Source: Naegleria gruberi
Lineage: Eukaryota
Assembly: GCA_000004985.1 (NCBI GenBank)
Contig: GG738890.1
Length of the DNA stretch: 64,000 nucleotides
Direction: 5' to 3' (one strand)
Both the position numbers and the translations under genes were made by a program. Below, piece by piece: positions 17,810 through 64,000 of this stretch. The notes beneath the pieces are model-generated. The model saw only the letters and a list, made by a program, of their open reading frames with translations, was not told the origin of the DNA and did no database searches. Every line of letters starts with the position of its first letter. Position 1 is the first letter of the stretch.

Positions 17810-19426
17810 TTATTCTAAAGTGGAATCTTCTCCTTGTAAAGGAGAGTAATCTTCGAGATTGATAATGTCTGTTGCAATTTTCTCAGTAAAGTATCTATCA
17901 TGTGAAGTAGCAATGATAATTCCAGGAAAATTCATTAATGCTTCCTCGATTACTTCTAAACTTGGAAAGTCAATATGATTAGTCAATTCATCCAATACCA
18001 AAATTGAGCATTTTTGCATGATTATTTTACATAGCTGTACCTTTCTTCTACATCCAATACTCAACGATTTCAATGGTGAATTCAAATCATGCCAAGTATA
18101 AACTCCAAGATTACACAATTCAGTAATAACCTTTTGTTTTGTTGCTTGAATACTCGAATCTTCCATCAACAATTCAATTGCAGTCTTGTCGAGTGGCATA
18201 TTTTCCTGTTCCTGATCTAAATAACCAATCTTGGCATGCTTACTAATATTTACACTTCCTTCATCGGATTCTGTCAATCCCATAATTATGTTCATTAAGG
18301 TTGTCTTTCCAGAACCATTAGGTCCTTGAATGATTAATCGATCTCCACTAACCAAAGTGAAGGAAAGATTTTGGAAGAGAGGTTTTTGGGCAAAGGATTT
18401 GGACAAGTCCGATAATTCAATACTTAGAGAGGATGCAATAGAACTTTCATCAAATTCGAACGAAATTTTGTTTCGTTCTTGAATTAAATCTGTTCTATTC
18501 TCGAGCAAGTGTTCTTGCTTTCTCGTGATTTGATTAAATGCTTTGGAGGTACCCTTGTGAACTCGTTCCTCTTGATTGTTATAACTGAGTTTATCCCTAT
18601 TCTTTGGATCTCTCAATTTTCTAGCTTTCATGGAAGATGCCATCTGAATTGACTTTTGTTTCAGGTTTTTCAATTCCTTATCTTGAAGTTCACGTTCTTG
18701 CATGGCTCGTTGACGTTTCTTTTCCTCTTGAGCAAGATAATTTTCGTATCCTCCCCTGAAGTGAACAAACTTTTTGGTGTGAGGAGAAAGTTCTGAAATT
18801 CTATTAGAAACTGAATTAATCAATGTTCTGTCGTGAGTCACCATCACAACTGCTCCATCATAATCCTTCAAGAAATGTTCCAACCATTCAATACCTTGCA
18901 CATCAAGGTGATTAGTTGGTTCATCCAATAATAAAATGTCAGGTTTCACAATACTTAGAGCACACAGAATTGACTTGGTTTTCTCTCCACCACTCAAACT
19001 CTCAAATGGTTGTTCCAATAAATCATTATTCAATCCAATAAGTTTCGTCTGCTGATAAATCTCATCTCCAATTATCGAATTCAACTCATTATACCACTCC
19101 TCAGAAAGTGGTTGCAAAGGTTGTTCCAAAAACTGTTGAATATCAGCATCAGGAAAGAATTTCAACATGGTAATAATTGTCGACTCATCACCCTTAGTAA
19201 TTTCTTCAAAATGTTGAGGCAAGAAACCAATCTTTCCCTCAATCTCCACCATTCCAGTATATTCAAAGTCAATCATACCAAATTGAGATGTTCTATTATG
19301 ATTATCATCATCTTTTTGATCATGATCATCATTATTTAAATAAGCACTATTCATCAAACGGAGGAATGTAGTTTTGCCACATCCATTCTCGCCCACAAGT
19401 GTTACCTTCGCACAATATAGGATCAT
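17810..19426 (-). CDS. ABC-F family ATPase (two ABC cassettes, no TMD); 5' end is probably incomplete in this ORF
   Basis: Walker A GENGCGKT and GPNGSGKT. Signature motifs LSGGEKT and LSIGCRRK. Walker B LLLDEPTNHLD and LVLDELTNHID. The ORF begins only 12 residues before the first Walker A. An ABC-F-like DIKIFNITIKHSNRMIIS segment lies upstream in another frame (about 19530..19640). Confidence 0.8.
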   Translation of the reverse strand: MILYCAKVTLVGENGCGKTTFLRLMNSAYLNNDDHDQKDDDNHNRTSQFGMIDFEYTGMVEIEGKIGFLPQHFEEITKGDESTIITMLKFFPDADIQQFLEQPLQPLSEEWYNELNSIIGDEIYQQTKLIGLNNDLLEQPFESLSGGEKTKSILCALSIVKPDILLLDEPTNHLDVQGIEWLEHFLKDYDGAVVMVTHDRTLINSVSNRISELSPHTKKFVHFRGGYENYLAQEEKKRQRAMQERELQDKELKNLKQKSIQMASSMKARKLRDPKNRDKLSYNNQEERVHKGTSKAFNQITRKQEHLLENRTDLIQERNKISFEFDESSIASSLSIELSDLSKSFAQKPLFQNLSFTLVSGDRLIIQGPNGSGKTTLMNIIMGLTESDEGSVNISKHAKIGYLDQEQENMPLDKTAIELLMEDSSIQATKQKVITELCNLGVYTWHDLNSPLKSLSIGCRRKVQLCKIIMQKCSILVLDELTNHIDFPSLEVIEEALMNFPGIIIATSHDRYFTEKIATDIINLEDYSPLQGEDSTLE

Positions 19427-19710
19427 CAATAATAAGTGTTTCTTGTTTTTCTTTTTTATATGGAGTTGACTCTATCATTAGAAAAACACAAATGGGAGAT
19501 GATCATTCTATTAGAGTGTTTAATGGTGATATTAAATATTTTGATGTCACTAGAAGAATTAAAGAATCTAATATAAAGTACGACTATTTAAAAGGGAATT
19601 CTTGGTTTGATAATAGATTAATAATAGATTACAAAAGTCATAACACTAGAAGTTTCTTGTTTGTAAGAAATTTCACAATCCATTTATTATTCTGTTCACT
19701 AAATAATGAA

Positions 19711-20253
19711 TTAAATATCTTCTTGAGCTAATACACTGGAAGCATAATTTTTTAAGGTCTCTACATACTGTAACTGGTCAACTTCAAACTTATCTCTATC
19801 ATTAGAGAATGTTATTATTTCGATATTCTTCTCTTCATTAAATAGGATCTTCTTTAATTTCATACAAGCTTTCCAGTAATGATACTCAACTAGAAAGATT
19901 TGGTAGTTCTTGTAAAGATAATCAAGATCAGAATCTTTAAAAATAATCTTCAGCTCTTTTCTGAAATTGGCTGGTGTGATTATTTTAAAATCAGCAAACA
20001 GCTCGAGCTTTCTATACTTTCCTTTAATTTCATTAATATCCTTTTCACCAACATAAATGTCAATAATGAGTGTTTTTTGTCTTCCATTTCCCCTCTTAAT
20101 TACAAAGTCTGGTGTTGAATTGTTGAGAAGACATTTAATATCGTGTTCTCGAGTAATAATGTTCTCTGTAATAAAAACTTCTTTCTTTTCTATCAACATA
20201 TCTTGTATCATGTAATACAAATAATCATGTACCATTTCATTATTGTCTTCCAT
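19711..20253 (-). CDS. Hypothetical protein (possibly the 3' part of the same gene as 20331..21041)
   Basis: 180-aa ORF with an ATG start. The reading frame stays open upstream into 20254..20345 in a shifted frame that connects to the neighbouring ORF. Confidence 0.35.
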   Translation of the reverse strand: MEDNNEMVHDYLYYMIQDMLIEKKEVFITENIITREHDIKCLLNNSTPDFVIKRGNGRQKTLIIDIYVGEKDINEIKGKYRKLELFADFKIITPANFRKELKIIFKDSDLDYLYKNYQIFLVEYHYWKACMKLKKILFNEEKNIEIITFSNDRDKFEVDQLQYVETLKNYASSVLAQEDI

Positions 20254-20330
20254 ATAGCCTAAAGCCTTTAGTCTTTGTTCGATATATGTAAAGGCTTGTT
20301 TAGTATTGGATACGGCATACTTATGCTCTA

Positions 20331-21041
20331 TTAAATCCTTGAAGTGAGCATTCTTCTTCCATTCTGATGGAATATGAAATTTTTTTCTAAAAACCTGAAG
20401 TAATGACGAAGTGTTTTGGCTGAGACAAAACTTAAGACATCTCCATCGGATAGTCTATCACCAACTTCGTAGTTACGTCTAATCTCCTTGATAGTAGTTA
20501 GACCCCAATGTTTACCAGTGAAATCCTCATCAGCGGATTCCTCATCAGGGTCTTCATCAAGTTGATTAGCTTGTTGCAGAACAGGAGGAACAGCTTCGAG
20601 ATGCTTTATTCTCTCACCCAAAGAAGTGATGGCGTTGAGAATAGCATCAAGGTTCTTTTCAGAACCAGCTTGGTTGTTATCCAAGGTTTTGGATGTTGGG
20701 TCAACCACAGAGGGGAGTGAAGCTGAGCTACCATTGTCAGTTACTGGGATGTAACCAGACTTGTAGGTAGAAGTTGAGGATTTGCTTGCTGAAACTCTTT
20801 GACGAATGTTGGAAATATTCGCCTTGCTTGGTGTTTGAACCATTTCAATATACTTAATTTTTTTGAGCATAAAATTATTTATCAACTCAATTTTATTGTT
20901 TACAATTTGTCGAAATACTAACGTTGCATCGTTCCTCGCAACTCTACATTTGTCACTACTAATCATTCCCTGTTGTTCAAATGGTACGTCAACTCCTTGT
21001 TGTGTCATACAAACTTCATCAATTATTGCTTGTTCAGACAT
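20331..21041 (-). CDS. Hypothetical Ser/Thr-rich protein
   Basis: The listed ORF starts with GTG; the first ATG is at 21039-21041. It has a coiled-coil/low-complexity middle, and its C-terminus runs into the frame discontinuity at about 20330-20400. Confidence 0.4.
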   Translation of the reverse strand: MSEQAIIDEVCMTQQGVDVPFEQQGMISSDKCRVARNDATLVFRQIVNNKIELINNFMLKKIKYIEMVQTPSKANISNIRQRVSASKSSTSTYKSGYIPVTDNGSSASLPSVVDPTSKTLDNNQAGSEKNLDAILNAITSLGERIKHLEAVPPVLQQANQLDEDPDEESADEDFTGKHWGLTTIKEIRRNYEVGDRLSDGDVLSFVSAKTLRHYFRFLEKNFIFHQNGRRMLTSRI

Positions 21042-21360
21042 CGTCACTTTGGTGCTTGAAGTTTTTTTTTTATTGTTCTTTAAAAAATTAAAATTATTGT
21101 GATTTTGAACATGTTACATTGCAAATTAATAAAAACAAGATTGAGAACAAGTAATCCTCATTATAGAGATGGTACTAAGTGACAGTGAAACGGGGGACGG
21201 ATGAGACGGAGAACACTCAGTTTCTTACTAAAGACGGGAGAAGAGCATCCGCTTAATACTGATGACGGTAAACCAAAATGGAAAATGCACAACCTTAGTA
21301 ACACCGATAAATTGAATGATACATTTAATAAAGTTAAGAATATGAAAAAATATTTCAACA

Positions 21361-21870
21361 TCTAGTACGTGATGTACTTTGATGATTCTTCGAGTGGTTT
21401 CACATCCGTAAGCTGCCAAACGTTCACATCATCATCTCAACATCATCTAAATAGTAGTAATAGTAGTAATTTTTATTATTGGACTTTCATCATAAAATAG
21501 TAAATCAATTTTTGGATTATAATTTTTCAAGTTGGTAAACCATCATCGGAACACTCACCAACCGTCATCATAGATATATTTAATATAGTAGAATAGTATG
21601 GGTGATTTCTATGTCTTGGAAATATCTTTATTTTGGTGAAACTCAACATTTTACTAAAATCATCCTCACTGTTGAATCCATTGGAAAGATTGGAAAACTA
21701 TTAATGTAGGATTGTTGGAAATGGTCAATAGTAGCATAGTAAATTTTGAACAGTGGATTTTCATCAAGTTTTAATAGGGATAGGTACATGTGAATTTTAA
21801 AAAGTACATGTACCATTACTCAACATGTACTTGACCAACTTGGAAATCTTCTAGTACTATTGTTTAAATC
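21361..21870. repeat. Interstitial copy of the subtelomeric repeat (about 75-80% identical to 62831..63535)
   Basis: It shares ordered blocks with the terminal repeat: cgagtggtttcacatc, caaac.ttcacatcatcatctcaacat, tagtagtaat..agtaatttttatt, aagttggtaaaccatcatcgga.cactcaccaacc.tcatcat, gataggtacatgt...caacatgtacttgaccaacttggaaa. Confidence 0.6.
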
Positions 21871-22695
21871 ACTAATAAACACCATATTTAATATCAGTTT
21901 TTCATTATTTTGTGTTTTGGCTTGGAGAGTGATTTCTAGCCAAACCTTTTATCATTCACTCCTTCAAGAGTGATTCAAAAATTATCAAACTCATTGTGAA
22001 CATTACACAATGATATTAAAATAATAAAATTCTTGTTTTTTCTTTTTATTTCATTTCTTTCACCTTAAATCGAACAATTAACCTTATTTCCTTAAACATC
22101 ATTAAGATCAAATTGAATTTCAAAGATAACCAACTTTTTCAACATCTCAAATCCTACACGTTATAGGGATCACACTCATATCAATTAATCCTATTTTTCA
22201 TTTTCAGTAAAAAATCAAAATTTGAACTTTCCAAAGTTTACTATTTACCTGAATTGTTTGAGAAGGAAACTTCTCATAAAAAGAAGGGTAGTTACCCAAC
22301 AGTGTTTTAATCAACTAAGTCAAATTATTTCATGTCATTCTTAAATTTGAGACAGAAAGAGTGAAATCTTTGATTTTAGTGAATATTCCACAACAGAGGT
22401 GTTGTGTTTGTTACCGTCACACCGTCAATTAGTATCTCCTCCTAATTATACTAATGGGTATTAAAGCTCAGGGACTGTTTCACCTTTAAGGTGATTCAGC
22501 CTTGAGACCTGCTTTAATGGATATAAATCTTTATTAGCAGGTCCCGAGATTAATAAATATGGCTCTTATAAAAAACTTATCAATAGTATTAGTAAAGATA
22601 AGAAAAAAATTAGGAGATGCGAATAGGAGGCATAAACTAAATTGAAATTAAAATAAAAAAGATATCATTCGATGAACATTTCAATATGAATGTAA

Positions 22696-22769
22696 GCAGC
22701 GATAGATCAGTTGGTTAGATCGTAAGCCTAACACGCTTAAGGTCGCGGGTTCAAGCCCCGCTCGCTGTA
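22696..22769 (+). tRNA. tRNA-Val (anticodon AAC)
   Basis: Cloverleaf: acceptor GCAGCGA/TCGCTGT, D-stem GATC/GATC, anticodon stem TAAGC/GCTTA with loop CTAACAC (AAC). T-arm GCGGG-TTCAAGC-CCCGC. Discriminator A, followed by a downstream T-run. Confidence 0.9.
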
Positions 22770-22951
22770 TCCATTTTATTTTCTAATTATTTTTGACGTA
22801 ACCAATTCCAAAGAATTCAACCAACAATTGGACTGCAGTTTCGTCCAATATTTGAATTGTATAACTGAAAGGGTTAATTAGAATTGGTCCCCTTGGTGAT
22901 TATTTCATGTCTTGTGCTCTTGCTTTTTATTGAATTTCTAATTAGAAAGTA

Positions 22952-25302: not shown

Positions 25303-25407
25303 AGAAACTAGATATCAAAACAGTGAGCAATAAAATTAAGTACAAAAGAATATTTACGAGCTAGTCTTTTTATAATGATATTAAGGAACATTTCATTTTG
25401 AATGTAA

Positions 25408-25481
25408 GCAGCGATAGATCAGTTGGTTAGATCGTAAGCCTAACACGCTTAAGGTCGCGGGTTCAAGCCCCGCTCGCTGTA
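25408..25481 (+). tRNA. tRNA-Val (anticodon AAC), second identical copy
   Basis: 74 nt identical to 22696..22769. About 25 bp upstream (gaacatttca..tgaatgtaa) and 14 bp downstream (ctgtatccatttta) are also shared. Confidence 0.9.
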
Positions 25482-25563
25482 TCCATTTTACATTTCAATT
25501 TTATTGTCCAAGAATTTATTCTAATCTAATGTTCGTAACTTTACAATTTTTTTATTCACAAAT

Positions 25564-51928: not shown

Positions 51929-54900
51929 ATGAAAGTAAAGATCTCATTTCTCTTGCTCAATATTTTATTCCTTCTCTTCCTGTCAATATTTCTTGACACT
52001 TCATTGAGTGCTGACACCTTAACTTTTGTTTCGAAAGGAAATGCGCCTCAAACAGGTTCTTCTTTATATTTCCATAAAGCTAGTAACAAGTTGTATGCGT
52101 TTGGAGGTACCACTGATAGTAACAATGTTGTAAATACTATTAAATCTGTCAGTGTCACGTCAACTGTGTTACAGAGCTTGTCAAATCTTAATTCTAACTT
52201 CTCAACGACTAGTTTGTCCATTAGTACTTCTTTATCATCTGTAGGATCAGTATCAACAGCGTTTTCTTATGGAGCTTTTCATATTTTGACAATTGACAAT
52301 CAAGAATATGCATATATATTTGGAGGATCAAATAATCGTATTCAAAGAGCAAATACTTCCTCATTAACATCATTTACAACACTTTATAGTACATTACCTG
52401 AAGCCTATTTTGGAGGAGCTACCTTTAGAACAGAAAGTTTCGTCTATTTGATTAGTGGAAGTGGAACGAAGGCAATGTATAGAGCTAGTGTCAGTAATCC
52501 AACAAATTGGACAAATATTGGTAATTTTCCAGTTACTATTGTGATGCCAGGAGTTTTTACTTACAAAAGAAAAGTTTATTTGGTTGGAGGTTCTTCTTCC
52601 TATTTAGGAGGAACTAATTATAATACTATTTACTTTGCAACTTTTGATGCTCTTGACAAGATGACAAGCAGTTCGAGTGGAGTTTGGTCCCTATCCACTT
52701 CCAAGTTACCAGTAGCAGCAGGTAGCTCAACATTCTTCATGACTGATACATATGCTTACATGACATCTGGCACTCTTGGTACAAAACTTTACCGAGCTCC
52801 TCTTTCTTCATTAACAACCTGGACAGATAGTACACTGACCACCCCTTACTCAGCCTCTCTCGTCACTTCCTTCACAAGTGGTAATACTCTTCTCTACTAT
52901 GCTGGTTTGAAATATTCGACAATTTTATTTTGGACTTCAATTTCATCACTTGATAATTTTTACACTTCACAAGTTGAAGAGTTTAAGGGATGTTTTAGTG
53001 TGCCAGTTTCGGATTTGACTGTTTGTAATGGAAGAGGAGGCTGCGTTGCAAGGGATGTATGTCAATGTAGTGATGGGTTTTATGGAGATGCTTGTCAGTT
53101 TGAAAGAGTTTGTTATGGAGTGACAGCTGGCAGTTCGAATGTTTGTTCTGGAAATGGAGTTTGTATGGCTGATAATACGTGTGTTTGCAATAGTGAAAGT
53201 ACTGGTTCTACATGCTCTGATTTTACTTGTTTTGGTATTTCTCCAACTGATTCGAATATTTGCTCTGGAAATGGAAATTGTCTTTCACATGACAAGTGCC
53301 AATGTAAAACTGGATATTCTGGACAAAATTGTGATTCTTTCACTTGTTATGGACTCCCACCAAGTGATCCAAAGGTTTGCTCTTCCTTAGGTCCATGCAT
53401 TGGTTACAACAATTGTTCATGTCCAAATTCTCTGGCCGAAGATTGTTCTGCATTTGGATGTAATGGAATAAGCGCCAATAATCCGAGTGTTTGCTCTGGA
53501 AATGGGATTTGCACTTCTTTGGATGTTTGTGTTTGTAATGAGACAGTTAGTGGTCAATTTTGTAATGTGTTTTCATGTTTTAATGTTTCGAATGATGATT
53601 CGAATGTTTGTTCGGGAAAGGGAAGTTGTTTGAAATCAGATATGTGCTCTTGTCAGAATGGATACAGTGGTAGCCAGTGTGAATTATTTTCATGTGGTGG
53701 AATTAGTCGTTTGGACAGTTTAGTTTGTTCTGGAAATGGAAGTTGCATTTCTCCTGATTTGTGTAAATGTAATGAGGGATGGAGTGGTGATAATTGTGAA
53801 TTTCCATCATGTTTTGGATATTTATCAACTGATGGATTAGCTTGTAGTGGTTATGGAACTTGTGTTTCGAATAATAGCTGTCTCTGTGCGCAAGGATTTC
53901 GTGGTCAATCATGTGAAATTTACACTTGTAATGGCAAATCAAATCAAGAAATTCAATGCTCTGGAAATGGTCAATGTTCTCCTCAAACTCTCACTTGTAA
54001 TTGTAGAGAGAATTACTTTGGACAAGATTGCGAATATTTCACTTGTTTTGGTGTGCTAAATAATCAAACAAATGTTTGCTCTGGACATGGCATTTGTTTG
54101 GGTATTAATAATTGCTCTTGTGAGAGTGGTTATTTTGGATTTTCATGTGAATTGCATTCATGTGATGGTATTCCACAATTGTCTGACATTTACAAGAATA
54201 TGACAAATAGTCCTTTCTCAAATTGGGAAAACCAAATTCCTTGTAATGGTAGAGGAGCATGTACTGCACTCGATACTTGCCAATGTGATTCTGGTTATTT
54301 GGGAAAATATTGTTCAGATTTCAAATGTTTTGACAAGCTCGTTAATGACACAAATGTTTGTTCAGGGAATGGAACATGTACATCTCCAAATAAGTGTCAA
54401 TGCAAAGAAGGATTCTATGGAAATGAATGTGAAAGTTTTGATTGTTTTGGAATTGAAAAATCATTCAAAACTGTTTGTTCTTCAGCTGGCATTTGTATTT
54501 CTCCTGAAAATTGTTTTTGTAAGGCAGGATTTTATGGAGCTGATTGTTCCAAGTATGAATGTTATGGTCTATTATTTAATAATTCGAATGTTTGTTCAGG
54601 AAATGGCAAGTGTTTGGAGCCAGAAAGTTGTCAATGCAAGGAAGGATTCTTGGGTAATAATTGTGAACTTTATTATTGTTATGGAAAGGTCAATAACGAA
54701 ACGAGTGTTTGTGGAGGAAATGGAAAATGTTCTTCATTGAATACATGTGAATGTAGGGATGGATATATTGGGGATGAGTGCTCTGTTTACAAGTGTTTCG
54801 AAACATTTAGTAACGATTCCACAGTATGCTCCTCTTTTGGTAAATGTTCTGGAATTGATACATGTATTTGCAATGCAGAACATTTTGGAGAAAAGTGTGA

Positions 54901-57900
54901 ATTAACTTGGTGTCATGGAAAGGCTTCAAATGATAGCTCAGTATGTAACGGTAAAGGAATTTGTAACAGCTTTGACACATGCATTTGTGATCAAGATTAT
55001 TTTGGTGAAACTTGTCAAGATTTCAAATGTGGAACCCTGTTAAAGAATGATTCTATGGTTTGTTCTGGAAGTGGATCATGTTCAAGCCCAAATAATTGCA
55101 CATGTTTGGATGGTTATTTTGGAACTCATTGTGAATTATTTGAATGTCAAGGAAAGCTCCTCAATGATTCTAATGTTTGCTCTGGAAATGGAACATGTCA
55201 ATCTCCAAATAAGTGTCAATGCAAAGAAGGATTCCATGGGAATGAATGTGAAAGTTTTGATTGTTTTGGAATTGAAAAATCATTCAAAACTGTTTGTTCT
55301 TCAGCTGGCTCGTGTATTTCTCCTGAACATTGCGTTTGTAGGGCAGGATTTTATGGAGCTGATTGTTCCAAGTATGAATGTTATGGTCTATTATTCAATA
55401 ATTCGAATGTTTGTTCAGGAAATGGCAAGTGCTTGGAGCCAGAAAGTTGTCAATGCAAAGAAGGATACTACGGAAATGTATGTGACAGTTTTGATTGTTT
55501 TGGAATTGAAAAATCATCAGAAACTGTTTGCAACTCAGTTGGATCTTGCATTTCTCCTAACTTGTGCAAATGCAAGGATGATTTCTATGGAGCTACCTGT
55601 GAAAAGTTTAAATGCTTTGGTGTTAATATGACCGATGAAAAAGCATGTAATCAGAAAGGTACATGTATTGGAAAAGACTTGTGCACTTGTGAGAATGGAT
55701 ATTTCGGTAGTAACTGTTCCCAATTTGGTTGTTTTGGAATTGTTAGTAGCAATGCTAGTGTTTGTTCGAATGGAAATGGCAAATGCATTGGTAGAGATGA
55801 GTGTGAATGTTTAACAACCAAAAATGGTTATTACACTGGAAATGAATGTCAATACTTTGTGTCTAACATTACACAAGTTGCATTTGTAATAGATATTGAT
55901 GAAAATAGAAAGGAAATATTATCAGAACCTGGTGAAGATAGATTTGTGAACTTAAAAGTAACAATGAGCTCGTTGTCAAATGTTACCTTCTTGGTATGGT
56001 GTAATAATTGTACAAATTTTACAAATACTGGAATGGATAATGCTCTTGTTTTTTATACACCCCAAATGGTTATTGATGTTTCTAATTTAGCTGTAGGAGG
56101 TACATTTGAATTTTCAGTCATTAGTCAGAACATGGCAGAGAAAACCGAATTCTCCAATATTAGAAAGTTTATCTTGGCAATAGTGGTTCGCCCTATTGAA
56201 CCTTATAAACCTACTGACGTACGAATTGAAAGTTTAGAGGTATCCAACTTTCCAAAGGCAATTATCTACTCATCCTCTCTCAAGTTTGATTTCATTCTTT
56301 CCAAATTGACTTTGAACAATTTAGAAGGCAGCAAATTGTTAATGAGTGATTGTATTTCACTCACTGACGAATCTTGTCAATTAAGATATAATTATAATGT
56401 ATCTGTTTTTGATACATTTAAAAAAGAAGAAATTATCTATGGTTTGAAGGTTAAAGGACATGTATTCTGCCCCGTAGCCAATTATACTAATACTCTAAAG
56501 CTTTCACCTGCTATTAATGTTCAGTTCGCTCTTCCAACAAGTAACTTTTCCGCTTCTTCCCTCAAAATAGTTTTTAGTTTTGAAATTGGAAGTGAAAATT
56601 ATTCAATCCAAACATATTCCCAATCAGAATTAGTTTCTGTGAGTGCTGAAGGTATAAAACCTCCAAATAATTATCAAGTACAAGTTTCTCCTCAAACATC
56701 AGTAGCCATAGTAGAGAATGTCACAATAGCTTCACCTGTTTGGAATTGTGACAATGAAAATTTCAATCCTATTCGCTACGCATTTGGTTTTTACAATCCT
56801 ACTGTCGATAGTAAGAAAGCATGGATAAAGTTGACAGAATATTCCACAAATCCAACAGCTAGTTTCCCACTTCCTTATCTATCCAAGCAATTAAGCACTT
56901 CCATGCAAGTAGAAGTTGTAATATTTGTGATGGACTCTCAAGGGAATAGTCAATATCTGAAAATAGGGCAAGCAAAAGTTTCTCCATTTCAAGGAATTTT
57001 GCCTTCCTCCATGAGTGATCTAGAGAGAAGTGTTCTAGCCTACGATCAATTTACTCTATCCCATATGGCTGACAGTTCTGTGGTTGTGGATATCGTTAAG
57101 AGTATTTCTGTAAATCCTGCAGATCCTGGATCTTCATTGAAAGTTCTGGACTCGCTGACTTCTGACAGTAGCTTGTTGAGTAATCCAGATATTGCAAGTC
57201 AAGTGGCTGATACAGTTACCTCCTTCTTGTCAAGTGCCCTTGAACTTTATCAAAACGAGCTTAAAACAAATGGTTTTGTCTCGTCTAAAATGTCAGAAGA
57301 AGCCAAATCATCAGCTGTTTCAGTAATTTCCAATTTGTTTACATCTGTTGACACAAATTCAACAACATCTGCAAGTAATGATATTGCCAAAAAGACAGAA
57401 CAAATGATTCTCTCCTTCTCCAAGTTAGTTCTAGCCTCAGAAGTTCCAAAAGTGTTAGAAACAAGTGACTCTGGATCTCTCGCATTACCAGTGTTACAGT
57501 ACAATACTCCATCCATGAATGTTACATTCTCCTCATTCATGCTTAGTGGTGGTGCTTCAAAGAGGTCTTCTAACAATCAAGGTACTTATCAATTAACAAG
57601 TGGAGAATCAAATATTCAAATAGACTTGAATGAAATAGTTGGAAAATACGGAGGCTATTCGAAACCACTTGGATTGTCCCTTGTCACTTTTGAAAAGAAT
57701 ACCAAGGTTGATAACTTTTCCCTTTCCAATCCAATGTCCTCTATAATCAACGAGTTGAAATATTACCAAAACTCTGAAATTGTGAAGTTGAATGATTTAG
57801 ATAGTCCAATATCTTTGCAATTTGGAATTAACTCTGCTTCTCTTTTACTCCTTTCTAAAGGGGCAAGCATTACCTCTCAGGAAAGTTTCAATCAAACTCA

Positions 57901-59833
57901 AAATGTAACAATAATACAGGAACCCTATGTTAGTTGCATGTATTGGGATGAAATTGAGAATGGATGGAGAGATTACGGGTGTACACTTCTTTCCTTTGAT
58001 AATGTAACTGGAAAGGCAGAATGTGCCTGTACTCACACCACTAAATTCTCAACCTTTGTGCAATACAAGAAGAGAAATGTTACCTCCACTTTAACACCTG
58101 CTCAAGTTGTTGCTGCTCTCAGTGAAACAACATTTGAAATTATCCTGAATAGCTTTGAAATAGTTGCAGGAGTAGTCTTTGGTTTTTTCTCATTCATTTT
58201 GTTGGTGCTCTTGATAGTGTACAGAAAGCGCCAGCCAATTCAGAGCAGAATGTTGACACCGTATATTGGTATGGTAGCATTACTTGTTGAGAATGTTTTA
58301 ATTTCCATACTACAGAAAGGTCTCCTTCTCCAAGATACGAGTAATCCATCGAATAGCAGTGATAGTTTAATCTTGGGAGCCAATTTGACAGGAAATATTT
58401 GCATGATTATTGTAAATACCTTGAATATTACTGCCATCTTTGCCTATTTAGTTCAAGTTATTCGATTCCAATTCATGAAGTCACTCTATGAAAAGATTAA
58501 GAGAACAAGAACAGAACCATCAAGGAAAATAATCCAATTTTTGAAATTCATTACTTCCAAACTTGTATTCTCAGTTTCGGTGTTCATTTGTGCGTGTGTC
58601 AACTTGTTGTTATGGACAGTGTGGGTAGCTATATTGAGATCTAACACTATTGATTCATCCACTTATACTAAAGGAAGTGCAATTTGTTATGCCATACTAT
58701 TAATTGGATGTAGCATCTTGATTTCCATTACAATTATTGTTGATATTTTCACAACTGTTACACGAGATGACGATCAACAAATTACTGAAAGAGCCAGATC
58801 CAAAATCTTCTCACCAGAGGAAATGAAAAACATCAAAGAAGGCATTGAAGAAGTGCAAAGTACCTCAGCAGCCTCTCCAATAAGTATTACTGATACACCA
58901 TCCTATTCATCCTTTGAATTGAGAAAATTATTTAGAAAATTCCTCCACCGAGATGAACCACTGTACTTTAGAATGGAAATGCTCTTCTTCTTGACATGCT
59001 TTGTTTTCTGTATCATTCAATTAGTAACTGGCTTGATTATTGATCAAATCAAATCATCTGAATCAACAGTAACTCCAACAATACGTGCCCTCTCAGTCAT
59101 TCAATTCATATTTGAAGTACTCTACTCTGCAACCTACTTGCTTGTATTTGGTGGTTTCTCTCTACTTGTTCTCATTAAACAAAAGAAGGCAACAAAAAAG
59201 CCAATCAATGAAGCTGATTCACTATTTGACGATTCAGAAGTGATGGAATTATTCCAAGATGTACAAGGATTTGAAATCTTTGAAGAGTTTGCTCAAAAGG
59301 AATTCTCTGTTGAAAACCTCTATCTCTATGCTGAATTGTTATCCAACAAACAAGTGATTGCTGGTAATGCTCTCCGAAAACTACCAAACTTTTTGGAAGT
59401 ACTCTCTGATAAGTTTATCCAAAATGGATCCACCTATGAAGTGAATATTCCCTCCTCTACAAAGACTGAATTCAACCAATTGAGAAAATCCCTAAAGGAG
59501 GTGTTAATCATGATGAATACTCAAAGTGGAGGGCAACAACAAGCCCATGTTGTGGATATTATTCTTGAGGATGGAGATGAGCAAGATGACAATAATCGTG
59601 TTGAAGATAATGTAATTGGCAAGAATCTAGATGAGGAAAATTCTCTGAAGGCAAAAGTGTTAAGCTTCTTTGATGCTCTCTCACGACAAGTTGCCATTAA
59701 TTTGAGCGATACATTCAGTCGTTTTGCCAATACCAAGAGTTACAAATCCTACAGGAAGAACCGAGATTTCATTCAAAATATGGTCAAAAAGGCCAATGTT
59801 GAAGCCTTCCATACAAGTCCCAATGTTGTCTAG
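51929..59833 (+). CDS. Giant adhesion-GPCR-like receptor: signal peptide, N-terminal beta-propeller-like region, about 30 tenascin-type EGF-like repeats, GPS motif, 7TM, C-terminal RGS domain
   Basis: Repeated CxGxGxCxxxxxCxCxxGxxGxxC units across about 52980..55860. GPS-like CMYWDEIENGWRDYGCTLLSFDNVTGKAECACTHTTKFSTF. Seven hydrophobic helices at 58140..59180. C-terminal RGS consensus FEEFAQKEFSVENLYLYAELL...YEVNIP. Confidence 0.8.
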   Translation: MKVKISFLLLNILFLLFLSIFLDTSLSADTLTFVSKGNAPQTGSSLYFHKASNKLYAFGGTTDSNNVVNTIKSVSVTSTVLQSLSNLNSNFSTTSLSISTSLSSVGSVSTAFSYGAFHILTIDNQEYAYIFGGSNNRIQRANTSSLTSFTTLYSTLPEAYFGGATFRTESFVYLISGSGTKAMYRASVSNPTNWTNIGNFPVTIVMPGVFTYKRKVYLVGGSSSYLGGTNYNTIYFATFDALDKMTSSSSGVWSLSTSKLPVAAGSSTFFMTDTYAYMTSGTLGTKLYRAPLSSLTTWTDSTLTTPYSASLVTSFTSGNTLLYYAGLKYSTILFWTSISSLDNFYTSQVEEFKGCFSVPVSDLTVCNGRGGCVARDVCQCSDGFYGDACQFERVCYGVTAGSSNVCSGNGVCMADNTCVCNSESTGSTCSDFTCFGISPTDSNICSGNGNCLSHDKCQCKTGYSGQNCDSFTCYGLPPSDPKVCSSLGPCIGYNNCSCPNSLAEDCSAFGCNGISANNPSVCSGNGICTSLDVCVCNETVSGQFCNVFSCFNVSNDDSNVCSGKGSCLKSDMCSCQNGYSGSQCELFSCGGISRLDSLVCSGNGSCISPDLCKCNEGWSGDNCEFPSCFGYLSTDGLACSGYGTCVSNNSCLCAQGFRGQSCEIYTCNGKSNQEIQCSGNGQCSPQTLTCNCRENYFGQDCEYFTCFGVLNNQTNVCSGHGICLGINNCSCESGYFGFSCELHSCDGIPQLSDIYKNMTNSPFSNWENQIPCNGRGACTALDTCQCDSGYLGKYCSDFKCFDKLVNDTNVCSGNGTCTSPNKCQCKEGFYGNECESFDCFGIEKSFKTVCSSAGICISPENCFCKAGFYGADCSKYECYGLLFNNSNVCSGNGKCLEPESCQCKEGFLGNNCELYYCYGKVNNETSVCGGNGKCSSLNTCECRDGYIGDECSVYKCFETFSNDSTVCSSFGKCSGIDTCICNAEHFGEKCELTWCHGKASNDSSVCNGKGICNSFDTCICDQDYFGETCQDFKCGTLLKNDSMVCSGSGSCSSPNNCTCLDGYFGTHCELFECQGKLLNDSNVCSGNGTCQSPNKCQCKEGFHGNECESFDCFGIEKSFKTVCSSAGSCISPEHCVCRAGFYGADCSKYECYGLLFNNSNVCSGNGKCLEPESCQCKEGYYGNVCDSFDCFGIEKSSETVCNSVGSCISPNLCKCKDDFYGATCEKFKCFGVNMTDEKACNQKGTCIGKDLCTCENGYFGSNCSQFGCFGIVSSNASVCSNGNGKCIGRDECECLTTKNGYYTGNECQYFVSNITQVAFVIDIDENRKEILSEPGEDRFVNLKVTMSSLSNVTFLVWCNNCTNFTNTGMDNALVFYTPQMVIDVSNLAVGGTFEFSVISQNMAEKTEFSNIRKFILAIVVRPIEPYKPTDVRIESLEVSNFPKAIIYSSSLKFDFILSKLTLNNLEGSKLLMSDCISLTDESCQLRYNYNVSVFDTFKKEEIIYGLKVKGHVFCPVANYTNTLKLSPAINVQFALPTSNFSASSLKIVFSFEIGSENYSIQTYSQSELVSVSAEGIKPPNNYQVQVSPQTSVAIVENVTIASPVWNCDNENFNPIRYAFGFYNPTVDSKKAWIKLTEYSTNPTASFPLPYLSKQLSTSMQVEVVIFVMDSQGNSQYLKIGQAKVSPFQGILPSSMSDLERSVLAYDQFTLSHMADSSVVVDIVKSISVNPADPGSSLKVLDSLTSDSSLLSNPDIASQVADTVTSFLSSALELYQNELKTNGFVSSKMSEEAKSSAVSVISNLFTSVDTNSTTSASNDIAKKTEQMILSFSKLVLASEVPKVLETSDSGSLALPVLQYNTPSMNVTFSSFMLSGGASKRSSNNQGTYQLTSGESNIQIDLNEIVGKYGGYSKPLGLSLVTFEKNTKVDNFSLSNPMSSIINELKYYQNSEIVKLNDLDSPISLQFGINSASLLLLSKGASITSQESFNQTQNVTIIQEPYVSCMYWDEIENGWRDYGCTLLSFDNVTGKAECACTHTTKFSTFVQYKKRNVTSTLTPAQVVAALSETTFEIILNSFEIVAGVVFGFFSFILLVLLIVYRKRQPIQSRMLTPYIGMVALLVENVLISILQKGLLLQDTSNPSNSSDSLILGANLTGNICMIIVNTLNITAIFAYLVQVIRFQFMKSLYEKIKRTRTEPSRKIIQFLKFITSKLVFSVSVFICACVNLLLWTVWVAILRSNTIDSSTYTKGSAICYAILLIGCSILISITIIVDIFTTVTRDDDQQITERARSKIFSPEEMKNIKEGIEEVQSTSAASPISITDTPSYSSFELRKLFRKFLHRDEPLYFRMEMLFFLTCFVFCIIQLVTGLIIDQIKSSESTVTPTIRALSVIQFIFEVLYSATYLLVFGGFSLLVLIKQKKATKKPINEADSLFDDSEVMELFQDVQGFEIFEEFAQKEFSVENLYLYAELLSNKQVIAGNALRKLPNFLEVLSDKFIQNGSTYEVNIPSSTKTEFNQLRKSLKEVLIMMNTQSGGQQQAHVVDIILEDGDEQDDNNRVEDNVIGKNLDEENSLKAKVLSFFDALSRQVAINLSDTFSRFANTKSYKSYRKNRDFIQNMVKKANVEAFHTSPNVV

Positions 59834-59882: not shown

Positions 59883-62830
59883 NNNNNNNNNNNNNNNNNN
59901 NNNNNNNNNNNNNNNNNNNNNNNNNNNNNNNNNNNNNNNNNNNNNNNNNNNNNNNNNNNNNNNNNNNNNNNNNNNNNNNNNNNNNNNNNNNNNNNNNNNN
60001 NNNNNNNNNNNNNNNNNNNNNNNNNNNNNNNNNNNNNNNNNNNNNNNNNNNNNNNNNNNNNNNNNNNNNNNNNNNNNNNNNNNNNNNNNNNNNNNNNNNN
60101 NNNNNNNNNNNNNNNNNNNNNNNNNNNNNNNNNNNNNNNNNNNNNNNNNNNNNNNNNNNNNNNNNNNNNNNNNNNNNNNNNNNNNNNNNNNNNNNNNNNN
60201 NNNNNNNNNNNNNNNNNNNNNNNNNNNNNNNNNNNNNNNNNNNNNNNNNNNNNNNNNNNNNNNNNNNNNNNNNNNNNNNNNNNNNNNNNNNNNNNNNNNN
60301 NNNNNNNNNNNNNNNNNNNNNNNNNNNNNNNNNNNNNNNNNNNNNNNNNNNNNNNNNNNNNNNNNNNNNNNNNNNNNNNNNNNNNNNNNNNNNNNNNNNN
60401 NNNNNNNNNNNNNNNNNNNNNNNNNNNNNNNNNNNNNNNNNNNNNNNNNNNNNNNNNNNNNNNNNNNNNNNNNNNNNNNNNNNNNNNNNNNNNNNNNNNN
60501 NNNNNNNNNNNNNNNNNNNNNNNNNNNNNNNNNNNNNNNNNNNNNNNNNNNNNNNNNNNNNNNNNNNNNNNNNNNNNNNNNNNNNNNNNNNNNNNNNNNN
60601 NNNNNNNNNNNNNNNNNNNNNNNNNNNNNNNNNNNNNNNNNNNNNNNNNNNNNNNNNNNNNNNNNNNNNNNNNNNNNNNNNNNNNNNNNNNNNNNNNNNN
60701 NNNNNNNNNNNNNNNNNNNNNNNNNNNNNNNNNNNNNNNNNNNNNNNNNNNNNNNNNNNNNNNNNNNNNNNNNNNNNNNNNNNNNNNNNNNNNNNNNNNN
60801 NNNNNNNNNNNNNNNNNNNNNNNNNNNNNNNNNNNNNNNNNNNNNNNNNNNNNNNNNNNNNNNNNNNNNNNNNNNNNNNNNNNNNNNNNNNNNNNNNNNN
60901 NNNNNNNNNNNNNNNNNNNNNNNNNNNNNNNNNNNNNNNNNNNNNNNNNNNNNNNNNNNNNNNNNNNNNNNNNNNNNNNNNNNNNNNNNNNNNNNNNNNN
61001 NNNNNNNNNNNNNNNNNNNNNNNNNNNNNNNNNNNNNNNNNNNNNNNNNNNNNNNNNNNNNNNNNNNNNNNNNNNNNNNNNNNNNNNNNNNNNNNNNNNN
61101 NNNNNNNNNNNNNNNNNNNNNNNNNNNNNNNNNNNNNNNNNNNNNNNNNNNNNNNNNNNNNNNNNNNNNNNNNNNNNNNNNNNNNNNNNNNNNNNNNNNN
61201 NNNNNNNNNNNNNNNNNNNNNNNNNNNNNNNNNNNNNNNNNNNNNNNNNNNNNNNNNNNNNNNNNNNNNNNNNNNNNNNNNNNNNNNNNNNNNNNNNNNN
61301 NNNNNNNNNNNNNNNNNNNNNNNNNNNNNNNNNNNNNNNNNNNNNNNNNNNNNNNNNNNNNNNNNNNNNNNNNNNNNNNNNNNNNNNNNNNNNNNNNNNN
61401 NNNNNNNNNNNNNNNNNNNNNNNNNNNNNNNNNNNNNNNNNNNNNNNNNNNNNNNNNNNNNNNNNNNNNNNNNNNNNNNNNNNNNNNNNNNNNNNNNNNN
61501 NNNNNNNNNNNNNNNNNNNNNNNNNNNNNNNNNNNNNNNNNNNNNNNNNNNNNNNNNNNNNNNNNNNNNNNNNNNNNNNNNNNNNNNNNNNNNNNNNNNN
61601 NNNNNNNNNNNNNNNNNNNNNNNNNNNNNNNNNNNNNNNNNNNNNNNNNNNNNNNNNNNNNNNNNNNNNNNNNNNNNNNNNNNNNNNNNNNNNNNNNNNN
61701 NNNNNNNNNNNNNNNNNNNNNNNNNNNNNNNNNNNNNNNNNNNNNNNNNNNNNNNNNNNNNNNNNNNNNNNNNNNNNNNNNNNNNNNNNNNNNNNNNNNN
61801 NNNNNNNNNNNNNNNNNNNNNNNNNNNNNNNNNNNNNNNNNNNNNNNNNNNNNNNNNNNNNNNNNNNNNNNNNNNNNNNNNNNNNNNNNNNNNNNNNNNN
61901 NNNNNNNNNNNNNNNNNNNNNNNNNNNNNNNNNNNNNNNNNNNNNNNNNNNNNNNNNNNNNNNNNNNNNNNNNNNNNNNNNNNNNNNNNNNNNNNNNNNN
62001 NNNNNNNNNNNNNNNNNNNNNNNNNNNNNNNNNNNNNNNNNNNNNNNNNNNNNNNNNNNNNNNNNNNNNNNNNNNNNNNNNNNNNNNNNNNNNNNNNNNN
62101 NNNNNNNNNNNNNNNNNNNNNNNNNNNNNNNNNNNNNNNNNNNNNNNNNNNNNNNNNNNNNNNNNNNNNNNNNNNNNNNNNNNNNNNNNNNNNNNNNNNN
62201 NNNNNNNNNNNNNNNNNNNNNNNNNNNNNNNNNNNNNNNNNNNNNNNNNNNNNNNNNNNNNNNNNNNNNNNNNNNNNNNNNNNNNNNNNNNNNNNNNNNN
62301 NNNNNNNNNNNNNNNNNNNNNNNNNNNNNNNNNNNNNNNNNNNNNNNNNNNNNNNNNNNNNNNNNNNNNNNNNNNNNNNNNNNNNNNNNNNNNNNNNNNN
62401 NNNNNNNNNNNNNNNNNNNNNNNNNNNNNNNNNNNNNNNNNNNNNNNNNNNNNNNNNNNNNNNNNNNNNNNNNNNNNNNNNNNNNNNNNNNNNNNNNNNN
62501 NNNNNNNNNNNNNNNNNNNNNNNNNNNNNNNNNNNNNNNNNNNNNNNNNNNNNNNNNNNNNNNNNNNNNNNNNNNNNNNNNNNNNNNNNNNNNNNNNNNN
62601 NNNNNNNNNNNNNNNNNNNNNNNNNNNNNNNNNNNNNNNNNNNNNNNNNNNNNNNNNNNNNNNNNNNNNNNNNNNNNNNNNNNNNNNNNNNNNNNNNNNN
62701 NNNNNNNNNNNNNNNNNNNNNNNNNNNNNNNNNNNNNNNNNNNNNNNNNNNNNNNNNNNNNNNNNNNNNNNNNNNNNNNNNNNNNNNNNNNNNNNNNNNN
62801 NNNNNNNNNNNNNNNNNNNNNNNNNNNNNN
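59883..62830. other. Assembly gap (run of N, 2948 bp)
   Basis: Contiguous N characters. The ORFs translated across it (the X-runs) are artefacts. Confidence 0.99.
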
Positions 62831-63540
62831 TCGGAGTGGTTTTACATCATGAAACCACCAAACTTTCACATCATCATCTCAACATGATCTATATAGTAGT
62901 AATAATAGTAATTTTTATTGGTGGATTATCATCATGAAATTGGAATTTATTTTTCATGATGGAAAATCATAAGTTGGTGTTCCATCATCGGATCATTCAC
63001 CAACATCATCATTATTGTTTTCCATTAATAATAATGTATAATTTCGAGTCTTGTAGCATAATTTGTGAAAATAATGGATATCTATTATTGGATTGTGATT
63101 ATAAATTTGGAATTTAATTTTGACTTTCACAAATTCAAGTTGGTAAGCCATCATCGGAGCAACTACCAACCATCATCATTGTTATTTATCATCATTATAA
63201 TAGTAATATTTGTGGAAATAAATCTGATAATAGTAATATTTTAATGAAATTCAATGTTTTCACTAAAATCATCATCACTGCCAGATTTATATGATAATTT
63301 GGAAAACTTTCAATCTAGTATTGTTCAGCATGGTCAATTCCATCAGGTAAAATCACTTCCGAACATTTCCCTATTGGTTATCATGATGATAGGTACATGT
63401 ATATTTTCAACATGTGCCTGGACCATATCCCAACATGTACTTCAACTTGGAAAATGTCTTTCGGGTTATTCATGGTCACCAATCATGATTCATGCCAAAA
63501 GTACACAGCCAATCATCTTGAAACATTAATAAACATTTAG
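62831..63540. repeat. Subtelomeric (telomere-associated) repeat containing an internally duplicated ~45-bp motif
   Basis: The unit aagttggt..ccatcatcgga.c...accaac..tcatcatt occurs twice (about 62965 and about 63140). It is homologous to 21361..21870 and directly abuts the terminal simple repeat. Confidence 0.6.
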
Positions 63541-64000
63541 GTTGGGTTTGGGTTTGGGTTTGGGTTTGGGTTTGGGTTTGGGTTTGGGTTTGGGTTTGGG
63601 TTTGGGTTTGGGTTTGGGTTTGGGTTTGGGTTTGGGTTTGGGTTTGGGTTTGGGTTTGGGTTTGGGTTTGGGTTTGGGTTTGGGTTTGGGTTGGGTTTGG
63701 GTTTGGGTTTGGGTTTGGGTTTGGGTTTGGGTTTGGGTTTGGGTTTGGGTTTGGGTTTGGGTTTGGGTTTGGGTTTGGGTTTGGGTTTGGGTTTGGGTTT
63801 GGGTTTGGGTTTGGGTTTGGGTTTGGGTTTGGGTTTGGGTTTGGGTTTGGGTTTGGGTTTGGGTTTGGGTTTGGGTTTGGGTTTGGGTTTGGGTTTGGGT
63901 TTGGGTTTGGGTTTGGGTTTGGGTTTGGGTTTGGGTTTGGGTTTGGGTTTGGGTTTGGGTTTGGGTTTGGGTTTGGGTTTGGGTTTGGGTTTGGGTTTGG
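63541..64000 (+). repeat. Telomere-like terminal tract (TTTGGG)n, G-rich strand 5'->3' toward the window end
   Basis: About 76 perfect hexamer repeats, with one variant unit at about 63688 (ttgggt). The tract runs to the last base of the window. Confidence 0.85.

What the first reader, a model, noticed from the sequence alone, without database searches (positions are those of the whole stretch)
21361..21870. Interstitial diverged copy of the subtelomeric repeat 42 kb from the telomere, about 830 bp upstream of a tRNA gene
Ordered blocks totalling about 500 bp match the terminal element at roughly 75-80% identity (cgagtggtttcacatc ... ttcacatcatcatctcaacat ... aagttggtaaaccatcatcggaacactcaccaacc ... 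gataggtacatgt ... caacatgtacttgaccaacttggaaa). There is no ORF, and no terminal inverted or long terminal repeats are visible. It may mark an ancient chromosome-end fusion or inversion, or it may be a non-autonomous mobile element family that also populates subtelomeres.
Basis: seen in the sequence. Interest (0 to 1): 0.5.

Follow-up and report, generated by a model that had tools for sequence, protein, structure and literature searches.

The report
Internal copy of Naegleria telomere-adjacent DNA
A roughly 0.5-kb non-coding stretch inside this Naegleria gruberi chromosome arm is a real, about 79%-identical, same-orientation copy of the DNA next to the telomere 42 kb away; it is most likely a decaying leftover of a former chromosome end, which is an ordinary kind of genome scar.

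Summary
Window 21392-21846, with a weak tail to 21881, is collinear and co-oriented with the telomere-adjacent sequence 62834-63453. Identity is 79% over 435 aligned columns. The local alignment scores 123, against 15±2 for shuffles and at most 22 for any other part of the window. The organism is Naegleria gruberi, and the terminal (GGGTTT)n array is its reported TTTGGG telomere repeat.

The terminal copy carries two diverged ~166-bp units where the internal copy has one. An assembly gap cuts the terminal copy on its left, so the element's left boundary is unknown.

The element is non-coding and matches no Rfam family. Its conserved "blocks" fit uniform neutral decay. No significant terminal inverted repeats, target-site duplications or SINE features are present.

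About 27 bp beyond the last homologous block lies a G+T-rich, telomere-like stretch in the correct orientation. Its collinearity with the terminal tail plus telomere is marginal (P 0.01-0.06).

My best reading (0.4) is an internalised old chromosome end. Rivals are a dispersed non-autonomous repeat, a repair-mediated ectopic copy, and a functional module.

Genome-wide copy number could not be tested because no N. gruberi DNA outside the window was reachable. So "subtelomeric repeat family" remains unproven.

Side finding: the neighbouring conserved gene is disrupted by a 554-bp fragment of a repeated element.

The parts
21392..21846 (+). Core of the interstitial copy, collinear with terminal 62834-63453
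   Evidence: blastn E 4e-38 and 1e-46. Alignments. SW z=52. nhmmer E 3e-144.
21392..21461 (+). Left block, containing GAGTGGTTT and the 21-nt identical run TTCACATCATCATCTCAACAT; aligns without gaps to 62834-62903
   Evidence: One search shows an ungapped alignment. Homology starts exactly at the edge of the N gap in the terminal copy, so the true left end is unknown.
21462..21625 (+). Single copy of the ~166-bp unit that is present twice in the terminal copy
   Evidence: Three-way alignment with 76% mean column identity. The unit profile finds exactly three units in the window.
21529..21562 (+). H block AAGTTGGTnnnCCATCATCGGAnCAnnnACCAAC, a weak 6-7-bp stem
   Evidence: Three matches in the window against 0 expected. 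As DNA, folding energies are -3.2 to -6.2 kcal/mol and z-scores -0.7 to -3.3.
21783..21832 (+). Cluster of three ACATGT palindromes (GGTACATGT...ACATGTACC...ACATGTACTT)
   Evidence: Such triple clusters occur only in the two copies. Hairpin z-scores are about -1.8.
21847..21881 (+). Weakly homologous tail ending in CACTAATAAACA; the terminal counterpart CATTAATAAACA ends 8 bp before the telomere
   Evidence: The tail alone gives P=0.06 against shuffles.
21887..21927 (+). Possible decayed telomere tract, with best core TTTGTGTTTTGGCTTGG at 21909-21925
   Evidence: It is one of only 4 clusters in 59.9 kb (both strands) within 4 mismatches of (TTTGGG)3. Its SW score of 11 is close to the window's highest, which are 12-14. 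G+T content is in the top 0.2% of windows. Collinear alignment with the tail plus telomere gives P=0.012-0.05. Suggestive only.
62831..63543 (+). Telomere-adjacent (terminal) copy of the element, cut on its left by the assembly gap
62904..63070 (+). Terminal copy, ~166-bp unit 1 (H block at 62971-63004)
   Evidence: (families D1-D3).
63071..63240 (+). Terminal copy, ~166-bp unit 2 (H block at 63137-63170)
   Evidence: The H block of the internal copy is closer to this unit (93%) than to unit 1 (85%).
63544..64000 (+). Telomere array (GGGTTT)n with one irregular GGGTT unit at 63688-63692
   Evidence: TTTGGG is the candidate N. gruberi telomere repeat reported in PMC3622300.
59883..62830 (.). 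Assembly gap (2948 N) hiding whatever lies to the left of the terminal copy
22696..22769 (+). tRNA-Val(AAC), 826 bp to the right of 21870; probably an incidental neighbour
   Evidence: A second copy at 25408-25481 has no element nearby.

Best explanation
The segment is a non-coding, neutrally decaying paralogue of the telomere-associated sequence (TAS) of this Naegleria gruberi chromosome end. It is most likely the scar of a former chromosome end.

**Proposed history.**
1. An older end carried TAS plus a TTTGGG tract at about window position 21.9 kb.
2. That end acquired the present distal ~42 kb. The likely route is telomere capture, meaning break-induced replication or a non-reciprocal translocation that copied or joined another chromosome arm's terminal segment in direct orientation.
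3. The incoming segment brought its own TAS and telomere.
4. The internalised TAS then lost contact with other chromosome ends and drifted to about 21% divergence. Its telomere tract decayed toward A+T.

**Shown.** The homology, the collinearity, the shared orientation, the lack of coding or RNA-family signal, the uniform decay pattern, and the unit-number difference.

**Inferred.** That the terminal element belongs to a chromosome-end family, that the G+T-rich stretch is a telomere remnant, and the rearrangement mechanism itself.
For: **Homology and orientation.**
- The homology is highly significant, and both copies lie on the + strand with the telomere-proximal end to the right.
- In the terminal copy the last matching block ends 8 bp from the telomere. 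In the internal copy the same block is followed, about 27 bp later, by TTTGTGTTTTGGCTTGG on the G-strand orientation.

**Telomere-like remnant.**
- Only 4 such telomere-like clusters exist in 59.9 kb on both strands, and none lies on the minus strand.
- G+T richness is in the top 0.2%.
- Tail plus telomere collinearity gives P=0.012-0.05.

**Neutral, non-coding decay.**
- The run-length pattern of matches equals that of shuffled mismatches (P=0.30 and 0.12).
- Alignment gaps are mostly not multiples of 3.
- tblastx identity is similar in all frames.
- There are no Rfam matches.

**Other points.**
- Variable numbers of a diverged ~166-bp unit (1 versus 2 copies) are typical of TAS-like minisatellite DNA (the comparison with TAS is from general knowledge).
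- The element sits in the largest ORF-free interval of the window (21042-22695), next to a gene disrupted by a repeat fragment.
- The organism and telomere type are established.
Against: - The telomere-like remnant is short (17 nt, or 30-40 nt if read generously). It was judged partly post hoc and is only marginally significant; some other parts of the window score as high or higher in a Smith-Waterman scan.
- Only one chromosome end is visible, so it is unknown whether the terminal element is shared by chromosome ends at all.
- The left boundary is hidden by the gap.
- The tail homology on its own gives only P=0.06.
- No syntenic outgroup was available. The N. lovaniensis and Willaertia loci share only the query gene with the window.
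- The distal 42 kb carries ordinary genes, which neither supports nor contradicts a translocation.
Confidence: 0.4

Rival explanations
1. It is a member of a dispersed, non-autonomous mobile element family (MITE-, Helitron- or solo-terminal-repeat-like). One copy happens to lie next to the telomere and another lies in an intergenic region.
For: By general knowledge, most ~0.5-kb repeated non-coding units are transposon-derived.

- A 16-nt inverted pair (21524-21539 / 21831-21846, 88% complementary) flanks 291 bp between the arms, so the pair spans 21524-21846 (pair I6).
- The internal copy can be read as A|TC...CTAG|T with a sub-terminal palindrome, which is Helitron-like (read directly from the sequence).
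- The tail homology beyond about 21858 is weak (P=0.06), so the repeat unit may end before the telomere.
- The 2.9-kb assembly gap beside the terminal copy would fit unassembled repeat DNA (inference).
- A fragment of another repeated element was inserted only 450 bp away.
Against: - The inverted pair lies inside the homologous region rather than at its ends. By a rough calculation, about 0.3 such pairs are expected by chance.
- It is degraded in the terminal copy.
- CTAG is not conserved in the terminal copy, which reads TCGG.
- No convincing target-site duplication is visible. The 8-mer TCTAGTAC at 21361 and 21851 is at chance level.
- There is no poly-A tail, and by eye no good A-box or B-box. 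ARAGORN and Rfam find no tRNA-like part.
- Only 2 copies occur in 61 kb.
- No copies turned up in the metagenome, prokaryote-genome or viral collections. These collections probably lack this species, so this point carries little weight.
Confidence: 0.25
2. It is an ectopic copy made during double-strand-break repair or gene conversion. A piece of subtelomeric DNA was copied as filler into an internal break, and no chromosome end ever existed at this position.
For: A clear, recent example of fragment capture lies 450 bp away. There, 554 bp of a repeated element replace 9 nt of a conserved gene, with no target-site duplication, and a 97%-identical relative has the intact site. The internal copy is of similar size (about 455-490 bp).
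Against: This does not predict the shared orientation or the telomere-like stretch after the tail. The boundaries cannot be examined because the gap hides the left end of the terminal copy.
Confidence: 0.2
3. It is a functional cis-element kept by selection at both sites, for example a protein-binding platform, a replication origin, or a promoter or boundary module. It would be built from strand-biased CATCAT motifs, the H block and three ACATGT palindromes.
For: - CATCAT occurs at 12-17 per kb on the + strand in both copies, against 1 per kb in the rest of the window. Its complement ATGATG occurs 0 and 2 times.
- The H block is kept in all three units, with one compensatory stem change between units 1 and 2.
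- The triple ACATGT cluster is unique to the two copies.
Against: - The pattern of conserved runs is what uniform 79% identity gives.
- Hairpins are weak, with z-scores from -0.7 to -3.3.
- There is no Rfam family match.
- With only two copies, shared motifs are explained by common descent.
Confidence: 0.07

Closest known systems
Telomere-associated sequences (TAS), such as the core X element and subtelomeric repeats of Saccharomyces cerevisiae (from general knowledge)
   Same: It is a few-hundred-bp non-coding element lying within about 90 bp of the telomere repeats. It contains short dispersed motifs and variable numbers of an internal unit, and its orientation is fixed relative to the chromosome end.
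   Different: No sequence relationship was tested or is expected. It is not shown here that the Naegleria element occurs at more than one chromosome end. No ARS-like or known factor-binding sites were identified.
Interstitial subtelomere and telomere relics, such as the human 2q13 ancestral fusion site and interstitial telomeric sequences (from general knowledge)
   Same: Subtelomere-like DNA lies far from the present chromosome end, is diverged from the terminal copies, and is followed by a possible degenerate telomere tract.
   Different: The human fusion site has head-to-head telomere arrays with inverted subtelomeres on both sides. Here there is a single direct-orientation copy, a doubtful tract of at most about 40 nt, and no inverted partner. 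That pattern fits telomere capture or translocation better than end-to-end fusion.
Non-autonomous DNA transposons (MITEs, small Helitrons)
   Same: The size (about 0.5 kb), the lack of coding capacity, the A+T richness and the internal palindromes.
   Different: No terminal inverted repeats lie at the ends of the homology. No demonstrable target-site duplication is present. The Helitron-like 3' CTAG is not shared by the second copy.

Membership tests
Subtelomeric / telomere-associated repeat family | Lies directly internal to the telomere repeat array | tested here: met
   The terminal copy 62831-63543 abuts (GGGTTT)n at 63544. TTTGGG is the reported N. gruberi telomere candidate.
Subtelomeric / telomere-associated repeat family | Shared by several or all chromosome ends of the genome | not testable with these tools
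   N. gruberi contigs could not be retrieved. Pattern scans of the metagenome, prokaryote-genome and viral collections returned 0.
Subtelomeric / telomere-associated repeat family | Non-coding, with internal tandem or variable units | tested here: met
   No conserved ORF. tblastx is equal across frames. The ~166-bp unit is present once versus twice.
Interstitial telomeric sequence / ancestral chromosome-end relic | Telomere repeats at the internal site, adjacent to the subtelomere-like DNA and in the matching orientation | tested here: inconclusive
   TTTGTGTTTTGGCTTGG at 21909-21925 matches 14 of 18 positions. It is 1 of 4 such clusters in 59.9 kb. Collinearity gives P=0.012-0.05. It is too short to be sure.
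End-to-end (head-to-head) telomere fusion site | Inverted telomere arrays and an inverted second subtelomere beyond the junction | tested here: not met
   There are no minus-strand telomere-like clusters. No inverted copy of the element exists anywhere in the window.
MITE / TIR DNA transposon | Terminal inverted repeats at the ends of the repeated unit, plus target-site duplication | tested here: not met
   The best inverted pair (21524-39 / 21831-46) is internal to the homology and at chance level. No target-site duplication was seen at the visible right end. The left end is hidden by the gap, so this part is incomplete.
SINE | tRNA-, 5S- or 7SL-derived head with a Pol III A/B box, and an A-rich or simple-repeat tail | tested here: not met
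   ARAGORN and Rfam find no tRNA-like segment in either copy. By inspection, there is no A-rich tail.
Helitron (non-autonomous) | 5' TC and 3' CTRR with a sub-terminal hairpin, inserted between A and T | tested here: inconclusive
   The internal copy can be read as A|TC(21360)...CTAG(21852-55)|T, with palindromes 20-40 nt upstream. The terminal copy has TCGG at the equivalent place and its 5' end is in the gap. The motifs are too short to carry weight.
Known non-coding RNA gene | Match to a curated covariance model, or a stable conserved structure | tested here: not met
   No Rfam match at gathering score. Only chance-level matches appear at E>1. The hairpins are weak.
Protein-coding gene or pseudogene | A reading frame conserved between copies | tested here: not met
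   The 91-aa ORF of the terminal copy is broken in the internal copy. It has no real relatives among 1.8 billion representatives. The exact ORFs are not in the protein collection.

The most novel reading that the evidence does not exclude
The element is a previously undescribed Naegleria chromosome-end module with a fixed orientation toward the telomere. One possibility is a telomere-targeted mobile element. Another is a protein-binding subtelomere platform, built from strand-biased CATCAT arrays, the H block and a triple ACATGT palindrome cluster. Under either possibility, the internal copy would still act as an origin, a boundary or a seed for chromosome healing, rather than being a dead scar.
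Probability: 0.08. Interest if true: 0.55.

Novelty: new member of a known kind. Interest (0 to 1): 0.25.

Why it matters
I found no sequence-level description of Naegleria chromosome ends in the searchable literature. The only relevant report is a candidate TTTGGG telomere repeat (PMC3622300; other searches).

If the terminal element proves common to N. gruberi chromosome ends, this internal copy would be a datable marker of a past chromosome-end rearrangement. Naegleria has a poorly understood karyotype, ploidy and sexual cycle, so such a marker would be useful.

The element would also be a practical probe for finishing chromosome ends in assemblies.

If the element instead proves to be one of many dispersed copies, it is simply a new small repeat family. 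Either outcome is of modest, specialist interest.

Tried and rejected
**1. Retrieving other N. gruberi DNA.** Exact-protein look-ups failed for two window ORFs and for two N. gruberi database proteins. Pattern scans with the H block, the 21-mer and the palindrome block found nothing in the metagenome, prokaryote-genome or viral collections.

**2. Is the repeat the end of the neighbouring repeated element?** Rejected. A 97%-identical environmental contig (L002) shows that the 554-bp fragment is a discrete insertion inside a conserved gene. At least 347 bp of sequence that continues collinearly in L002 (20949-21295) separate that fragment from the repeat. The related element contig L001 has no similarity to the repeat.

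**3. Cross-species synteny to date the junction.** Uninformative. The N. lovaniensis (L003) and Willaertia (L004) loci share only the query gene with the window.

**4. RNA gene.** No Rfam match. The hairpins are weak.

**5. Selective constraint on the blocks.** Not supported. The run-length test gives P=0.30 and 0.12.

**6. Coding potential.** No conserved ORF. The search of protein representatives with the 91-aa ORF gave only 4 weak hits (28-38% identity), which I take to be compositional. The exact ORFs are absent from the collection.

**7. More copies within the window.** nhmmer profiles of the whole element and of the 166-bp unit find only the known copies.

**8. Literature.** The searchable library holds nothing on Naegleria subtelomeres. 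The genome paper is not held. The supplement of the telomere survey is not held.

Full report
**Where the window comes from**

The ORF at 17810-19429 (minus strand) is 100% identical to a predicted ABC-F protein of Naegleria gruberi on a 350,200-bp contig. The window ends in 457 bp of (GGGTTT)n. This is the TTTGGG repeat proposed as the N. gruberi telomere (PMC3622300). The window is therefore the last 64 kb of an N. gruberi scaffold, with a chromosome end on the right. A run of 2948 N (59883-62830) separates the last gene from the 713-bp telomere-adjacent sequence at 62831-63543.

Yes.
- blastn of the terminal 713 bp against the window gives two overlapping hits at 21392-21641 (74%, E 4e-38) and 21448-21846 (67%, E 1e-46). 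Nothing else exceeds 34 bits.
- The two hits overlap because the terminal copy carries two diverged copies of a ~166-bp unit where the internal copy has one.
- Once this is allowed for, the copies are collinear: 81% identity over 134 nt on the left and 78% over 301 nt on the right. That is 79% of 435 aligned columns, with K2P 0.22-0.27.
- The local alignment score is 123. Dinucleotide shuffles give 15.3±2.1 (maximum 25), and every other 510-bp stretch of the window on either strand gives at most 22.
- Profile searches (nhmmer) with the whole element and with the unit find no further copy in the window.
- The tRNA-Val(AAC) gene is 826 bp to the right of 21870.
- The distance to the telomere is about 41.7 kb, including the gap of uncertain size.

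**Anatomy**

From left to right the internal copy has:
- a left block (21392-21461) containing a 21-nt identical run;
- one ~166-bp unit (21462-21625) containing the H block AAGTTGGTnnnCCATCATCGGAnCAnnnACCAAC (3 matches in the window, 0 expected);
- a right part that ends in a cluster of three ACATGT palindromes (21783-21832), seen only in the two copies, and in CAACTTGGAAA;
- a weakly similar tail to 21881, whose last block (CACTAATAAACA) corresponds to a block ending 8 bp before the telomere in the terminal copy.

CATCAT is strongly enriched and strand-biased in both copies. It occurs at 12-17 per kb against 1 per kb elsewhere, and its complement is almost absent.

Homology in the terminal copy begins exactly at the edge of the N gap. 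The true left boundary of the repeat is therefore unknown.

**What it is not**

- *Not coding.* ORFs in the internal copy are at most 57 aa. The 91-aa ORF of the terminal copy is broken in the internal copy. tblastx identity is similar in all frames, and alignment gaps are mostly not multiples of three. That ORF has no genuine relatives among 1.8 billion protein representatives, and none of ten ORFs from the two copies and the internal copy's left flank is in the protein collection.
- *Not a known RNA.* Nothing matches at Rfam gathering scores, and only chance-level matches appear at E>1. The two conserved hairpins are weak, at -3 to -8 kcal/mol with z-scores of -0.7 to -3.3.
- *No sign of selection on the blocks.* The longest identical run and the number of runs of at least 10 nt are what shuffled mismatches give (P=0.30 and 0.12). 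The "ordered blocks" are simply how 79% identity looks.
- *No clear transposon hallmarks.* The best inverted pair lies inside the homology and is at chance level. There is no A-rich tail and no tRNA-like head. A Helitron-like reading of the internal copy (A|TC...CTAG|T) is not shared by the terminal copy.

**The neighbourhood**

The two ORFs to the left, 20331-21047 and 19711-20253 (both minus strand), are a single conserved 251-aa gene. It has homologues in Willaertia and in metagenomes.

In the window this gene is broken by a 554-bp insert (20395-20948) that replaces 9 nt. A 97%-identical environmental contig (L002) has the intact gene.

The insert is the first 148 codons, plus about 100 bp of upstream sequence, of a ~340-aa protein family that is present in several copies in N. 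gruberi. One copy on another contig is 100% identical. In a related contig (L001) this ORF sits between a 155-aa ORF and an ORF of more than 881 aa. The large ORF has a below-threshold tyrosine-recombinase match (22 bits against a cut-off of 27.1).

I first suspected that the TAS-like repeat might be the end of this element. L002 refutes that. The insert is discrete, and at least 347 bp that continue collinearly in L002 (20949-21295) separate it from the repeat. L001 also shows no similarity to the repeat.

The finding still matters in two ways. It shows that this interval tolerates junk, and that this genome captures repeat fragments at breaks.

**Testing the chromosome-end idea**

If the internal copy was once next to a telomere, a decayed TTTGGG tract should follow its right end on the + strand.
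- A scan for 18-mers within 4 mismatches of (TTTGGG)3 finds only four clusters in 59.9 kb on both strands. One is at 21908-21926 on the + strand, about 27 bp after the tail block.
- The 30 nt ending there are in the top 0.2% of the window for G+T content.
- Aligning the internal tail with the terminal tail plus telomere gives P=0.012 (local) and 0.02 (semi-global). The tail alone gives P=0.06, and the junction plus telomere gives P=0.05.
- In a plain Smith-Waterman scan the region scores 11, close to the window's highest scores of 12-14 but not unique.

This is suggestive, not conclusive.

No minus-strand telomere-like tract and no inverted copy of the element follow. A head-to-head fusion is therefore not supported. 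The direct orientation also argues against an inversion (inference).

Cross-genus synteny could not date the junction. The distal 42 kb holds ordinary genes: an NF1-like RasGAP, a penicillin amidase and an EGF-repeat protein.

**Most likely explanation**

I favour, at 0.4, an internalised former chromosome end. Under this reading, TAS plus a short telomere tract became internal when the present distal segment was added in direct orientation, by telomere capture through break-induced replication or by translocation. The internal TAS has since decayed neutrally.

The rivals are:
- a dispersed non-autonomous repeat family (0.25);
- a repair-mediated ectopic copy of subtelomeric DNA, like the neighbouring 554-bp capture (0.2);
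- a functional motif platform (0.07).

The decisive test is a whole-genome search for copies, with their positions, orientations and termini. It could not be run because no N. gruberi sequence outside the window was reachable with these tools.

**Verdict**

This is a real but ordinary feature. It is a diverged interstitial paralogue of telomere-adjacent DNA, a known kind of genome scar, in an organism whose chromosome ends I could not find described. Interest is 0.25. Novelty: new member of a known kind.

Noticed in passing
window 19711-21041 (minus strand); insert at 20395-20948: The ORFs 20331-21047 and 19711-20253 are one conserved 251-aa gene of unknown function, with homologues in Willaertia magna and in metagenomes. 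In this genome it is disrupted by a 554-bp insert that replaces 9 nt (CAAGATGAT), with no target-site duplication. A 97%-identical ENA metagenome contig (L002) has the intact gene. No NCBI N. gruberi protein model for the downstream half appeared among the hits, which suggests a pseudogene.
   Followed up: yes
window 20395-20948 (minus strand); L001 1-4436: The insert is the 5' 148 codons plus upstream sequence of a ~340-aa protein family with at least four N. gruberi members on three contigs (P0121, P0122, P0123, P0126). One member is 100% identical. In contig L001 this ORF lies between a 155-aa ORF and an ORF of more than 881 aa. The large ORF's C-terminus gives a sub-threshold Phage_integrase (tyrosine recombinase) match and no reverse-transcriptase match. 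It may be a Crypton- or DIRS-like repeated element. Putative, uncertain DIRS1-like copies have been reported for N. gruberi (PMC3266345).
   Followed up: partly
L002 1336-1530 versus window 19405 downward: The last 195 nt of the environmental contig diverge from the window inside the start of the ABC-F gene, at the Walker A region. The window has an extra 18 nt (GTAACACTTGTGGGCGAG) and then unrelated sequence follows. This may be a chimeric metagenome contig, an intron difference or a structural difference. The other end of L002 stops at window 21295, which is 97 bp before the detectable start of the repeat. That could reflect an assembly break at repeated DNA.
   Followed up: no
window 22674-22793 and 25386-25505: There are two tRNA-Val(AAC) genes, 2.7 kb apart on the same strand. 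They sit within a 120-nt duplicated stretch that is 93% identical.
   Followed up: no
window 51929-59833 (plus strand): The last gene before the gap encodes a 2634-aa protein made largely of 39-aa (117-nt) cysteine-rich EGF/teneurin-type repeats. Its ORF ends 50 bp before the N gap.
   Followed up: partly
window 63688-63692: The otherwise perfect (GGGTTT)n telomere array has a single irregular GGGTT unit.
   Followed up: no
window 21042-22695: This is the largest interval in the window without an ORF of at least 150 aa (1.65 kb). The 770 bp between the possible telomere remnant and the tRNA gene (21927-22695) has no ORF of 60 aa or more, no Rfam match above threshold and no similarity elsewhere in the window. 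Its origin is unexplained.
   Followed up: partly
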